1,782 nucleotides of DNA, from NCBI GenBank assembly GCA_000004985.1, contig GG739327.1. One strand, given 5' to 3'. A program made the position numbers and the translations under genes. Origin of the DNA: Naegleria gruberi (taxonomy: Eukaryota). The notes under the pieces were generated by a model that ran no database searches, was not told the origin of the DNA, and was given only the letters and a program-made list of their open reading frames with translations. This document shows, in pieces, positions 1 to 1,782 of the stretch (position 1 is its first letter; every line of letters starts with the position of its first letter).

Positions 1-27
1 TATTGATGATGAACACATTTTTTTTAG

Positions 28-69
28 ATCGTCGGTTGGTTGAAAAATCCTCCAAAAACTGGAAGCAAG
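28..69 (+). CDS. putative 42-nt internal micro-exon, spliced in frame to the 375..634 exon
   Basis: It is flanked by an acceptor (T8 run 18-25 then AG at 26-27) and a donor (AAG|GTAACT, GT at 70-71). In the reading phase with codons starting at 30, it encodes RRLVEKSSKNWKQ with no stop. That leaves 1 nt (G69), which joins A375 and T376 to make GAT (Asp). The splice therefore continues exactly into the open frame-2 ORF of the downstream exon. This phase match has about a 1-in-3 chance of occurring randomly. Confidence 0.22.
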
Positions 70-374
70 GTAACTTGTAATTTTTTACAAATCTGTTGAA
101 AAAGAGGTACCAACTTTTGGAACAACAACAAAACTTGGCAGTTGAAATTTTATTGTTTTTTTATTTTTTGTTTTTTTAATTTTTTTGCCCCTAACTTTCA
201 CCACTTCTCTAAAGTTGAACCTATTTTTCATCATTCGGGCGGTCATCTTGCAGCGGTTTTTGCAAATGAAATCATTCTATTTTATTTATTATTTTTTAAT
301 TTTTTAATTTTTATTTTAATAATTTGGCGAAGACCCCTCTCCCCCTGCGTGCTGTAATTTATCCTTCTTCCCAG
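70..374 (+). other. putative 305-nt intron (GT...AG) separating the two proposed exons; very T-rich low-complexity interior
   Basis: Donor GTAACT at 70-75 and acceptor cttcttcccAG ending at 374. The interior is dominated by poly-T and TTTTTTAA-like units, which is typical of nematode introns. Translating it in frame 1 gives the Phe-rich artefact ORF 142..357. Confidence 0.22.
142..330 (+). repeat. T-rich low-complexity / simple-sequence tract (poly-T runs and TTTTTTAA-like tandem units)
   Basis: Directly visible: tttattgtttttttattttttgtttttttaatttttttgcccc (about 150-190) and ttattttttaattttttaatttttattttaataattt (about 287-323). These are interrupted only by a short GC-richer island at 232-262. 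Confidence 0.6.
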
Positions 375-634
375 ATCAAGAGAAAGAAATTCCTAAAGAA
401 AAAGAAGAAAAAGAAGAAAAATTGTCATTTATCGGAAACATTCGTGAAATTATCTCTGAATTGATAGAGGAAATCTTTTCTTCAGCCCTGCGTTTTGCAA
501 TTTTACTAATTTTGAAACTTCTCCTCATTTATTATATTGTTGTGAATTATGGAAAGGATTTATTGAAATTTGCTTGGCATGCTGTAATGTCATCTGATGC
601 AGAAGATCTTGAGAAAAGACTCAAAAATAAATAA
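375..634 (+). CDS. putative terminal coding exon of an upstream + strand gene; encodes a Lys/Glu-rich segment followed by a C-terminal tail-anchor-like TM helix and a short tail; stop TAA at 632-634
   Basis: Frame 2 is open from 323 to the TAA at 632-634. The track ORF 422..634 is the same frame, with TTG miscalled as M. A polypyrimidine tract plus CAG (tccttcttcccag, AG at 373-374) gives a credible 3' splice acceptor, putting the exon start at 375. Translation: (D)QEKEIPKEKEEKEEKLSFIGNIREIISELIEEIFSSALRFAILLILKLLLIYYIVVNYGKDLLKFAWHAVMSSDAEDLEKRLKNK*. The hydrophobic stretch AILLILKLLLIYYIVV lies ~30 residues from the C-terminus. AATAAA overlaps the stop. Confidence 0.4.
626..631 (+). other. 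canonical polyadenylation signal AATAAA overlapping the TAA stop of the 375..634 exon
   Basis: The sequence caaaaATAAATAAtcc contains AATAAA at 626-631, and the stop TAA sits at 632-634. This fits the 3' end of a transcript ending shortly downstream, roughly 645-660. Confidence 0.35.
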
Positions 635-665
635 TCCAGATTATTCGAAACTATTAGTTTACTTC

Positions 666-679
666 CAATTAGCAATTAG
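666..679 (+). repeat. perfect tandem direct repeat CAATTAG x2 (AATTA/TAAT homeodomain-type cores) in the intergenic region
   Basis: acttcCAATTAGCAATTAGaagt: the two 7-mers at 666-672 and 673-679 are flanked by the inverted pentamers ACTTC and GAAGT. Confidence 0.5.
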
Positions 680-1055
680 AAGTTCTGTAAAGTTGACTTT
701 TGAGCATAAACCTGGTTGAACATGAAGTTCTGGTTTAACTAGTATTTTTCTTCACCATTGCCATTTGACTTGACAGTTTCAGCAAAAGTAAAATTTCTAA
801 TAGTCCAAGAAGATACCAGCTTTTCATTAGCCAAGAATCCAAGAACTCGGTTAGGAATTTTTGATTGAACTTATCTTCCATCTGGCCATCCATAGCTCAA
901 AAAGTTTCATGATCCAATCTAATTGCCTTGTTTGTTAACTGTTTCTAAAACCATCACAACATCTCAACACACCATCTGTGAGTCACTGACATTGCATCAA
1001 AATCACCAGTCTCACATTAAAATTCAAAACAAAAAAGAAAACACACACAACCATC

Positions 1056-1061
1056 TTTCAG
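1056..1061 (+). other. consensus nematode 3' splice acceptor TTTCAG 22 nt upstream of the ATG; candidate trans-splice (SL) acceptor or end of a 5'-UTR intron
   Basis: atcTTTCAG|ttattaccattataaatacaacATG. In Caenorhabditis, SL1 trans-splicing uses a UUUCAG acceptor a few to a few tens of nt upstream of the initiator ATG. No in-frame ATG lies between the upstream stop at 1018-1020 and 1084. Confidence 0.35.
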
Positions 1062-1071
1062 TTATTACCAT

Positions 1072-1078
1072 TATAAAT
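1072..1078 (+). promoter_or_regulatory. TATA-box-like TATAAAT motif, 6 nt upstream of the ATG at 1084
   Basis: The sequence is ccatTATAAATacaacATG. It is too close to act as the core promoter for initiation at ATG 1084 if transcription starts ~30 nt downstream. Either it is an incidental AT-rich word or the true initiator is a downstream ATG, for example ATG 1144. Confidence 0.15.
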
Positions 1079-1083
1079 ACAAC

Positions 1084-1782
1084 ATGTCTTTTGGATTTTA
1101 CAAAATATTGGGAAGTTCCTGTTTGATTGGAGGATTTATTGGAATGACACTCTTTTTAATTAGTACTATCGTTACTTTTGTCTGTATTAATATTGATTAT
1201 TACTATGTAAATGATCCTGAGGCTGTGAAATTCAAGATGGTCAACTGTTGTCAAATTACATCGTTACAAAATTGTGAGACGAGCAGCAGGGGAACAACAT
1301 TTTGCAGAACTACTGTAAAATATCCATCCAATTTACAAAATCTGATCGAAATAGTTCAAAAATCCAATTCTGCTTATTACAAACTCACAACAGATTCTCA
1401 AAAATATGAAAAGAGAGAAGAAATTAATGCACCTTTTTATTTTAATCCAAATAATGTTAGTTTATATGAATATTACTCTGAGGATTATCCTAGAAATTTG
1501 TGGTTGGATTTTAATTGTAGAGCTATGGTTGAATATGTTGTAAATGGAACAAATTCAGAGTTGACCAATTCTTTCACAAGCTCAAATTATCCAAATTTAG
1601 CATCGTTTAATAGCTCACTTTCTCTAACAATGATAGAGAAAGTACTCAGATCGCAGGTAAGCGACAAGGTTCAAGTTTCGAAACAAGAACAAGTAGGAGA
1701 CTATATGAATTGTTATACGAATTCGAATGGAGAAACTCTCTTTTCTAACAGATATAGCTATTTATACAAGAATTTACTTGGA
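1084..1782 (+). CDS. 5'-complete, 3'-truncated ORF (233 codons, runs off window end) encoding a predicted single-pass membrane protein with an N-terminal signal anchor and a Cys-containing, N-glycosylation-site-rich ectodomain; family not recognised
   Basis: I translated frame 1 by hand. TAA at 1018-1020 is the nearest upstream in-frame stop, and ATG at 1084 is the first start codon after it. No stop occurs from 1084 to 1782 (MSFGFYKILGSSCLIGGFIGMTLFLISTIVTFVCINIDYYYVNDPEAVKFKMVNCCQITSLQNCETSSRGTTFCRTTVKYPSNLQ...NGTNSELTNSFTSSNYPNLASFNSSLSL...KNLLG). With about two-thirds A+T, a 233-codon open frame is very unlikely by chance. Residues ~8-36 are uniformly hydrophobic, consistent with a signal anchor or TM helix. 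Downstream there are 8+ Cys and at least four N-x-S/T sequons (NVS, NGT, NSS twice). Codon composition is non-repetitive and looks protein-like. The supplied track omits it, presumably because it has no in-window stop. Confidence 0.6.
   Translation, partial: MSFGFYKILGSSCLIGGFIGMTLFLISTIVTFVCINIDYYYVNDPEAVKFKMVNCCQITSLQNCETSSRGTTFCRTTVKYPSNLQNLIEIVQKSNSAYYKLTTDSQKYEKREEINAPFYFNPNNVSLYEYYSEDYPRNLWLDFNCRAMVEYVVNGTNSELTNSFTSSNYPNLASFNSSLSLTMIEKVLRSQVSDKVQVSKQEQVGDYMNCYTNSNGETLFSNRYSYLYKNLLG

What the first reader, a model, noticed from the sequence alone, without database searches (positions are those of the whole stretch)
1084..1782. Long open-ended ORF missing from the supplied ORF track is the strongest coding signal in the window
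Frame 1 runs 233 codons from ATG 1084 to the window edge without a stop, bounded upstream by TAA 1018-1020. In DNA this AT-rich, stop codons arrive about every 12-15 codons by chance, so an open run this long points to real coding sequence. The track lists only stop-terminated ORFs, so it silently drops the gene that continues beyond 1782.
Basis: seen in the sequence. Interest (0 to 1): 0.7.

Follow-up and report, generated by a model that had tools for sequence, protein, structure and literature searches.

The report
Annotated Naegleria orphan membrane-protein gene
The long open frame is a real gene of the amoeba Naegleria gruberi, already in GenBank as an uncharacterised "predicted protein"; it encodes a small lineage-restricted protein with two membrane-spanning helices, and it was missing from the ORF list only because it runs off the end of a tiny scaffold.

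Summary
Frame 1 is open from TAA 1018-1020 to the window edge (254 codons), with the first ATG at 1084 (233 codons). None of 2000 dinucleotide shuffles reach that length. The ORF tool omits it because it skips ORFs that run off an end.

The window is almost certainly a whole 1782-nt scaffold of the Naegleria gruberi assembly. GenBank already has a partial 191-aa model on a contig of that exact length (EFC35354.1), identical to window 1084-1656. There is also a full-length 263-aa allele or copy on a 275-kb scaffold (NAEGRDRAFT_73776, 229/233 identical). The gene ends only 30 codons past the window and has no intron in the full-length models.

Compared with an independent contig (L001), the ORF has 8 substitutions in 699 sites and no indels. 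The upstream spacer has 24 in 442 plus 5 indel events. dN/dS is about 0.25.

One diverged homologue (41% identity, environmental contig L002) keeps both hydrophobic helices, all six loop cysteines and an NGT sequon. No other relatives, Pfam family or PDB match were found, and AlphaFold2 models are unreliable.

Best reading: a two-pass, N-in/C-in membrane glycoprotein of unknown role. The existing partial model probably stops at a false splice donor (GTAAGC, 1657). Low interest; already known.

The parts
1084..1782 (+). Codons 1-233 of a 263-codon CDS. It is an allele or near-identical copy of N. gruberi NAEGRDRAFT_73776. The last 30 codons (second TM helix, C260, stop) lie beyond the window.
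   Evidence: 100% identity to P0002 over residues 1-191; 229/233 to P0001 and to P0003. Constraint.
1018..1020 (+). In-frame TAA that closes the frame upstream. There is no ATG between it and 1084, so 1084 is the first possible start.
   Evidence: All database models use the same start, and the L002 homologue starts within a few codons of it.
1013..1083 (+). 71 nt directly upstream of the ATG that are 100% identical to L001, although the spacer overall is 5.4% diverged with indels. Probably the 5' UTR or core promoter (inference).
   Evidence: Alignment.
1105..1191 (+). Hydrophobic helix 1 (residues about 8-36). Read as a signal-anchor or transmembrane segment.
   Evidence: Kyte-Doolittle 19-residue windows score 1.7-2.4. 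AF2 predicts a helix here with pLDDT 63-74. The segment is conserved as hydrophobic in L002.
1192..1782 (+). Loop of about 197 residues (37-233) between the two helices. It carries six cysteines (C55, C56, C64, C74, C145, C210) and three N-X-S/T sequons (N124, N154, N176). Inferred to face the lumen or cell exterior.
   Evidence: All six cysteines, the N154-G-T sequon and the DYPRNLW.DF.CR block are invariant in the 41%-identical homologue.
1657..1662 (+). GTAAGC, a splice-donor look-alike. The existing partial model (P0002, 191 aa) ends immediately before it. It is probably not used as a donor.
   Evidence: P0002 ends at Q191, which is base 1656. Both full-length models read through it. The read-through residues 192-233 are conserved in L002, including G205, Y207, C210, T212, N213 and R223-Y-S225. 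The only in-frame intron option (114 nt, to AG 1769-1770) has a weak acceptor and would delete those residues.

Best explanation
Window 1084-1782 is the first 233 codons of a genuine, intron-less, 263-codon protein-coding gene of Naegleria gruberi. It is an allele or near-identical copy of NAEGRDRAFT_73776, sitting on a tiny 1782-nt scaffold that ends 30 codons before the stop. The product is a small two-pass membrane protein. Shown: an N-terminal hydrophobic helix (about residues 8-36) and a C-terminal one (about 234-258), a loop of about 197 residues between them, and tails of only 7 and 5 residues. Inferred: helix 1 acts as an uncleaved signal-anchor, the loop is translocated into the ER lumen, and helix 2 stops transfer. 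That gives an N-in/C-in hairpin with the loop on the lumenal or extracellular side. There the six conserved cysteines would form up to three disulfides and N154 (NGT) would be glycosylated. The conserved juxtamembrane C260 is a candidate palmitoylation site. The biochemical role is unknown. The most likely class is a lineage-restricted surface or endomembrane glycoprotein (receptor, adhesion or structural), not an enzyme or channel of a known family.
For: Reality of the gene:
- The stop-free run of 254 codons was reached by 0 of 2000 shuffles.
- The translation is identical to GenBank EFC35354.1 over residues 1-191. That protein sits on a contig of exactly 1782 nt.
- It is 229/233 identical, gap-free and with the same ATG, to the full-length P0001 (EFC38523.1 / D2VXK0) and to P0003.
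- ORF versus spacer divergence is 8/699 against 24/442 (Fisher p=2.9e-5). Indel events are 0 against 5 (p=0.009). dN/dS is 0.25.
- Codon-position composition is skewed in the ORF (p=0.0015) but not in non-coding controls (p=0.79 and 0.67).

Architecture:
- The only two hydrophobic segments are at the two ends, and AF2 models them as long helices, the only parts with pLDDT above 60.
- The homologue on L002 (41% identity) keeps both helices, all six loop cysteines, NGT154, WG.ASI at the start of helix 2 and the cysteine after it.
- The flank after helix 1 is acidic (NIDYYYVNDPD), while K7 and R263 lie on the tails. This fits loop-out topology.
Against: - No transcript, EST or proteomic evidence could be consulted. 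No paper in the library mentions any identifier of the gene.
- dN/dS rests on 8 substitutions (p=0.055).
- The only distant homologue has frameshifts and may be a pseudogene.
- Topology, disulfides, glycosylation and palmitoylation are inferred from sequence only.
- AF2 gives no reliable fold for the loop (mean pLDDT 43-47).
- An N-terminal signal peptide plus C-terminal GPI signal would give the same hydropathy picture.
- Whether the window copy is an allele or a recent duplicate of the copy on the 275-kb scaffold is not resolved.
Confidence: 0.85

Rival explanations
1. Same gene, different membrane attachment. The N-terminal hydrophobic stretch is a cleaved signal peptide and the C-terminal one is a GPI-attachment signal. 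The mature product would then be a GPI-anchored, cysteine-rich surface glycoprotein rather than a two-pass protein.
For: Hydrophobic segments exactly at the two termini with a Cys-rich, sequon-bearing middle are the classic GPI-protein pattern. Small residues (G233, G235, A236, A237, S238) precede the C-terminal hydrophobic run and could serve as an omega site (sequence).
Against: The N-terminal hydrophobic run is about 28 residues, much longer than a typical signal-peptide h-region (established knowledge: 7-15 residues). There is no polar spacer between the candidate omega site and the hydrophobic tail. The C-terminal segment is more conserved than the protein overall: about 14 of 27 positions identical against 41% overall, including WG.ASI.F.VL, GII.I.V and the following Cys. 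That is not expected for a peptide that is cleaved off and discarded. No GPI or signal-peptide predictor was available.
Confidence: 0.15
2. The existing GenBank model on this scaffold is right. The exon ends at 1656, GTAAGC at 1657 is a used splice donor, and the open frame from 1657 to 1782 is intron that happens to be open.
For: AG|GTAAGC is a good donor consensus, and the deposited partial protein P0002 stops exactly there. An in-frame 114-nt intron to AG 1769-1770 is formally possible.
Against: Two full-length models read through. The 42 codons after 1656 stay open (about 4% by chance at 0.075 stops per codon). They encode residues conserved in the 41%-identical homologue, including C210 and RYS223-225. 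The candidate acceptor has a poor pyrimidine tract (0.53). Reading through leads straight into the conserved TM2.
Confidence: 0.07
3. The window copy is a non-functional relic: a decaying duplicate or haplotig copy, or an ORF that is open but not expressed.
For: It sits on a 1.8-kb orphan scaffold. Homology of the flank to L001 breaks off at base 372, so the locus has been rearranged or mis-assembled. The only distant homologue is itself frameshifted. No expression data were available.
Against: There is no stop, frameshift or indel in 233 codons, while the adjacent spacer has accumulated 5 indel events and 5.4% substitutions. dN/dS is 0.25. The 71 nt before the ATG are perfectly conserved.
Confidence: 0.05
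4. A chance open frame in AT-rich non-coding DNA.
For: None beyond the absence of a Pfam domain.
Against: 0 of 2000 shuffles reach the length. There are database matches, a constraint pattern and a conserved homologue.
Confidence: 0.01

Closest known systems
NAEGRDRAFT_73776 (EFC38523.1 / XP_002671267.1 / UniProt D2VXK0), 'predicted protein', Naegleria gruberi, 263 aa
   Same: Same start codon and collinear, with 229/233 residues identical. It supplies the missing 30 C-terminal codons (TM2 and stop).
   Different: There are four substitutions (T22A, E46D, T76A, S105T), and it lies on a 275-kb scaffold rather than this 1.8-kb one. Allele versus recent duplicate is not resolved. It has no functional annotation.
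EFC35354.1 / XP_002668098.1, 'predicted protein, partial', N. gruberi, 191 aa, on a 1782-nt contig
   Same: 100% identical to window 1084-1656, and its contig length equals the window length. This is almost certainly the existing annotation of this very sequence.
   Different: The model stops at 1656 in front of GTAAGC, whereas the evidence here favours reading through to the scaffold end.
Environmental homologue on JGI metagenome contig L002 (fragments P0004 + P0006), organism unknown, 38% GC, flanked by PepX_C- and RGS-domain genes
   Same: 41% identity over the whole length, with both TM helices, six loop cysteines, NGT and DYPRNLW.DF.CR conserved.
   Different: It needs at least three frame corrections, so it is a pseudogene or an error-prone assembly. 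The neighbouring genes are not shared with L001.
Two-pass membrane proteins with a large disulfide-bonded glycosylated ectoloop (P2X receptors, ENaC/ASIC, CDC50/LEM3, CD36). Resemblance recalled from general knowledge.
   Same: The overall plan is shared: TM helices near each terminus, short cytosolic tails, and a Cys-rich N-glycosylated loop.
   Different: No sequence similarity: none of these Pfam families appears even at E<=10, and the profile gives no PDB hit. The loop here (about 197 aa) is markedly shorter than in those families. This is an architectural analogy only.

Membership tests
N. gruberi gene NAEGRDRAFT_73776 (allele or copy) | Near-identical, collinear protein sequence with the same start codon | tested here: met
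   229/233 identical, 0 gaps, Met1 aligned. Same 90% cluster.
N. gruberi gene NAEGRDRAFT_73776 (allele or copy) | Same genomic neighbourhood (needed to call it an allele rather than a paralogue) | tested here: inconclusive
   DNA of the 275-kb scaffold could not be retrieved. Against L001, which carries the same gene, the flank is collinear for window 372-1083 but unrelated for 1-371.
Bitopic/two-pass N-in/C-in membrane glycoprotein (architectural class) | Two hydrophobic segments of TM length, and no others | tested here: met
   Kyte-Doolittle windows above 1.6 occur only at 7-22 and 230-245 (window starts). AF2 predicts helices 4-42 and 223-261.
Bitopic/two-pass N-in/C-in membrane glycoprotein (architectural class) | Loop on the extracytoplasmic side (glycosylated, disulfide-bonded) | not testable with these tools
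   Support is indirect only: six conserved cysteines, a conserved NGT sequon and the charge distribution.
GPI-anchored surface protein | Cleavable N-terminal signal peptide, plus an omega site, polar spacer and C-terminal hydrophobic tail | tested here: inconclusive
   No predictor was available. By eye the N-terminal h-region is too long (about 28 aa), there is no polar spacer, and the tail is conserved in sequence. These argue against but do not exclude it.
P2X receptor (PF00864), ENaC/ASIC (PF00858), CDC50/LEM3 (PF03381) | Match to the family profile | tested here: not met
   Not listed by hmmscan against Pfam-A at E<=1 or E<=10 for the window protein, P0001 or the L002 homologue. The PDB profile search is empty.
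Caenorhabditis Her-1 (PF09232), CYYR1 (PF10873), Claudin_2 (PF13903) | Score above the Pfam gathering threshold, reproducible among homologues | tested here: not met
   Scores are 15.4, 15.3 and 14.3 bits against cut-offs of 20, 31 and 29.1. Each hint appears in only one of the three sequences tested.

The most novel reading that the evidence does not exclude
The protein founds a Heterolobosea-restricted family of two-pass membrane glycoproteins whose six-cysteine ectodomain of about 200 residues has a fold with no detectable relative. It has no annotated paralogue in N. gruberi and no annotated orthologue in other sequenced Naegleria species. Such a protein could be a lineage-specific surface receptor or adhesion molecule of free-living amoeboflagellates.
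Probability: 0.35. Interest if true: 0.3.

Novelty: already known. Interest (0 to 1): 0.12.

Why it matters
It matters little beyond bookkeeping. The gene is already deposited, both as a partial model on this scaffold and as a full-length model elsewhere in the assembly.

Two small practical points follow:
- ORF tracks that list only stop-terminated ORFs hide genes cut by contig ends. That is a systematic blind spot on short scaffolds.
- The deposited partial model EFC35354.1 probably ends at a false splice donor and should read through.

Biologically, the protein is one of many uncharacterised lineage-restricted membrane proteins of Naegleria. Its conserved cysteine framework would make it a tractable candidate if surface proteins of these amoebae were being surveyed.

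Tried and rejected
- Pfam on the fragment, on full-length P0001 and on the L002 homologue gave only sub-threshold, mutually inconsistent hints (Her-1, DarT, CYYR1, Claudin_2, AsnC_trans_reg2). I rejected all of them.
- Rfam and tRNA scans of the window found nothing.
- Exhaustive phmmer over 1.84 billion representatives gave only the protein itself, two fragments of one homologue, and P0005. P0005 is a 70-aa tandem-repeat protein whose score adds up over its repeats at about 20% identity, so I rejected it as spurious.
- A profile search of the 5.8-billion-protein collection, a PDB profile search, and metagenome and viral contig scans found no further relatives.
- AlphaFold2 with the single sequence gave pLDDT 43.4, and with a 5-row alignment 46.8. 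Only the terminal helices are credible, so I ran no fold search, because matches to such a model are meaningless.
- Retrieving DNA for P0001 or P0002 failed: not on record.
- Synteny between L001 and L002: none detectable. The downstream neighbour on L001 is not a paralogue.
- Literature: no paper mentions any identifier of the gene. The N. gruberi genome paper is not held. The RNA-seq preprint has no supplements held.
- The upstream ORF has no relatives in the protein collection.

Full report
**1. The observation**

Translating 1018-1782 in frame 1 gives TAA, then 21 codons without Met, then ATG at 1084 and 233 sense codons to the last base of the window. The stop-free run (1021-1782) is 254 codons. 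The next longest run in any of the six frames is 103 codons. In 2000 dinucleotide-preserving shuffles the longest run anywhere averaged 84 codons (maximum 186) and never reached 254. The ORF is missing from the ORF listing because that tool does not list ORFs that run off an end.

**2. What it is**

A search of the 5.8-billion-protein collection returned one cluster: 'predicted protein [Naegleria gruberi]'. Its three members are informative.

- P0001 (EFC38523.1 / XP_002671267.1 / D2VXK0 / NAEGRDRAFT_73776) is 263 aa and lies on a 275,174-nt scaffold. It starts at the same Met and is 229/233 identical to the window, with no gaps.
- P0002 (EFC35354.1 / XP_002668098.1) is labelled 'partial', is 191 aa, and lies on a contig of exactly 1782 nt, the length of the window. 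It is 100% identical to window 1084-1656.
- P0003 is a 263-aa product on an ENA metagenome contig (L001, 2951 nt).

The window is therefore almost certainly an entire small scaffold of the N. gruberi assembly, and the gene on it is already annotated. The full-length versions show that only 30 codons are missing (WGAASIVFSVLFFFAFLTGIIIIAVMCNNR, then the stop), and their models have no intron.

**3. Evidence that the frame is under coding constraint**

Window 372-1782 aligns to L001 181-1625. I partitioned the differences by region.

| Region | Substitutions / sites | Rate | Indels |
|---|---|---|---|
| ORF (1084-1782) | 8 / 699 | 1.1% | none |
| Spacer (635-1083) | 24 / 442 | 5.4% | 5 events, 39 gap columns |

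- The substitution difference gives Fisher p=2.9e-5, and the indel difference gives p=0.009.
- Of the 8 ORF substitutions, 4 are synonymous and 4 are not. Nei-Gojobori gives dS 0.029, dN 0.0072 and dN/dS 0.25 (p=0.055, few events).
- Base composition differs by codon position in the ORF (chi-square p=0.0015) but not in the spacer (0.79) or in bases 1-371 (0.67).
- The 71 nt before the ATG are identical in the two sequences.

**4. A distant homologue**

An exhaustive phmmer search of 1.84 billion representatives found only three other proteins. P0005 is a tandem-repeat artefact. P0004 (48% identity to residues 71-139) and P0006 (43% to residues 205-260) lie on the same strand of one JGI metagenome contig, L002. 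They are pieces of one homologue that a prokaryotic gene caller split.

- tblastn and a three-frame reading show the homologue spans L002 890-1757 but needs at least three frame corrections. It is either a pseudogene or an error-prone assembly.
- L002 is 38% GC and its flanking genes carry PepX_C and RGS domains. It is unlikely to be a viral contig, and it comes from a different organism.
- The corrected protein is 41% identical to P0001 over the full length.
- Conserved features are both terminal hydrophobic helices, all six loop cysteines (C55, C56, C64, C74, C145, C210), the N154-G-T sequon, the block DYPRNLW.DF.CR, WG.ASI at the start of helix 2, and the cysteine that follows it.
- Profile searches with this alignment found nothing more in the protein collection, the PDB, metagenome contigs or viral contigs.
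- No paralogue in the N. gruberi proteome and no annotated orthologue from other Naegleria species appeared.

**5. The splice-donor question**

The deposited partial model stops at Q191 (base 1656), directly before GTAAGC (1657-1662). It presumably treats that as a donor whose acceptor lies off the scaffold. I think this is wrong, for four reasons.

- Both full-length models read through.
- The next 42 codons are open.
- Those codons encode residues conserved in the 41% homologue, including G205, Y207, C210, T212, N213 and R223-Y-S, and they lead directly into the conserved second helix.
- The only in-frame alternative is a 114-nt intron ending at AG 1769-1770. It has a weak acceptor and would remove those conserved residues.

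Without transcript data this remains an inference.

**6. How the product most likely works**

Shown:
- There are only two hydrophobic segments, at about 8-36 and about 234-258. Both are modelled by AF2 as long helices, the only regions with pLDDT above 60.
- The tails are 7 and 5 residues long.
- The loop is about 197 residues, rich in N, S, Y and T, and has six cysteines and three sequons.

Inferred from general principles of membrane-protein biogenesis:
- Helix 1 is a signal-anchor and helix 2 is a stop-transfer sequence, giving N-in/C-in topology with the loop lumenal or extracellular.
- The loop would form up to three disulfides and carry an N-glycan at N154.
- C260 may be palmitoylated.
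- K7 and R263 on the tails, and the acidic flank after helix 1, fit the positive-inside rule.

The main rival is a signal peptide plus GPI signal. I give it about 15%, because the N-terminal hydrophobic run is too long for a signal peptide, no polar spacer precedes the C-terminal run, and the C-terminal segment is conserved in sequence more than the protein as a whole.

The biochemical role cannot be derived. There is no Pfam family above threshold, and the weak hints (Her-1, CYYR1, Claudin_2) are not reproducible between homologues. The AF2 model of the loop is unreliable (mean pLDDT 43-47), so I did not attempt a fold search.

**7. Comparison with known families, and novelty**

The architecture recalls two-pass proteins with a Cys-rich ectoloop (P2X, ENaC/ASIC, CDC50, CD36). 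None of those profiles matches, and the loop here is much shorter, so this is analogy and not membership. The gene itself is already known as an uncharacterised predicted protein. No paper in the library mentions it.

**8. Verdict**

The residual value is a probable correction to the deposited partial model, plus a description of a small lineage-restricted family with a conserved six-cysteine loop.

Noticed in passing
window 375-634 (+), with 372-374 cag: A second conserved coding segment: DQEKEIPKEKEE...LSFIGNIREIIS...ALRFAILLILKLLLIYYIVVNYG...EKRLKNK*, ending at TAA 632-634. It has a hydrophobic helix near its C-terminus. It is 98.9% identical to L001, where it is the end of a continuous 146-aa ORF. 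It shows codon-position skew (p=0.0017), and its differences are 3 substitutions (all non-synonymous) plus one in-frame 9-nt indel in an AAGAAAAAG repeat. It has no relative in the protein collection, not even an N. gruberi model, and no Pfam domain. It may be an unannotated gene.
   Followed up: partly
window 1-374 versus L001 1-180: Similarity to L001 stops abruptly at window 372, exactly at a splice-acceptor-like site (tccttcttcccag|ATCAAG). In the window the upstream gene's frame is closed 17 codons before that point. In L001 it stays open back to an ATG. Only one donor in 1-360 joins in frame: AAG|GTAACT at 69/70, with ATG at 6. That would give a 305-nt intron and a different N-terminus (MMNTFFLDRRLVEKSSKNWKQ|DQEKEIP...). 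The possibilities are an alternative first exon or structural variant, an allele-specific intron, or a chimeric scaffold end. This is not resolved.
   Followed up: partly
window 146-186 and 280-325: T-rich low-complexity tracts (ATTTTTTT and TTTTATT-type degenerate tandem repeats) lie within the stretch that has no counterpart in L001. They fit intronic or intergenic filler.
   Followed up: no
window 635-1083: The intergenic spacer has blocks of near-identity to L001 interrupted by five indel events of 1-16 nt, plus a badly aligned patch around 887-908. The last 71 nt before the ATG (1013-1083), including ...ccatctttcag..., are perfectly conserved and may hold the promoter or 5' UTR.
   Followed up: no
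L002 1322-1450: The environmental homologue needs a -2 and a -1 frame correction within about 40 nt (around TTGG and TGGTG), and at least one more after an in-frame TAG. The conserved motifs (WYDFDCR, VVNGT) are still readable in the shifted frames. It is either a recently inactivated pseudogene or a result of sequencing and assembly errors.
   Followed up: partly
L001 2082-2951 (+): The downstream neighbour of the gene on L001 is an open-ended 290-aa ORF with hydrophobic segments. It has no Pfam domain and no significant similarity to the protein studied here.
   Followed up: partly
P0001 / P0003 / window, residues 22 and 46: The window copy differs from both full-length versions at T22 (A in the others) and E46 (D in the others). 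Each of the other two has two private changes (T76A and S105T in P0001; T59I and S177G in P0003). That makes three distinct haplotypes of this gene in the databases.
   Followed up: no
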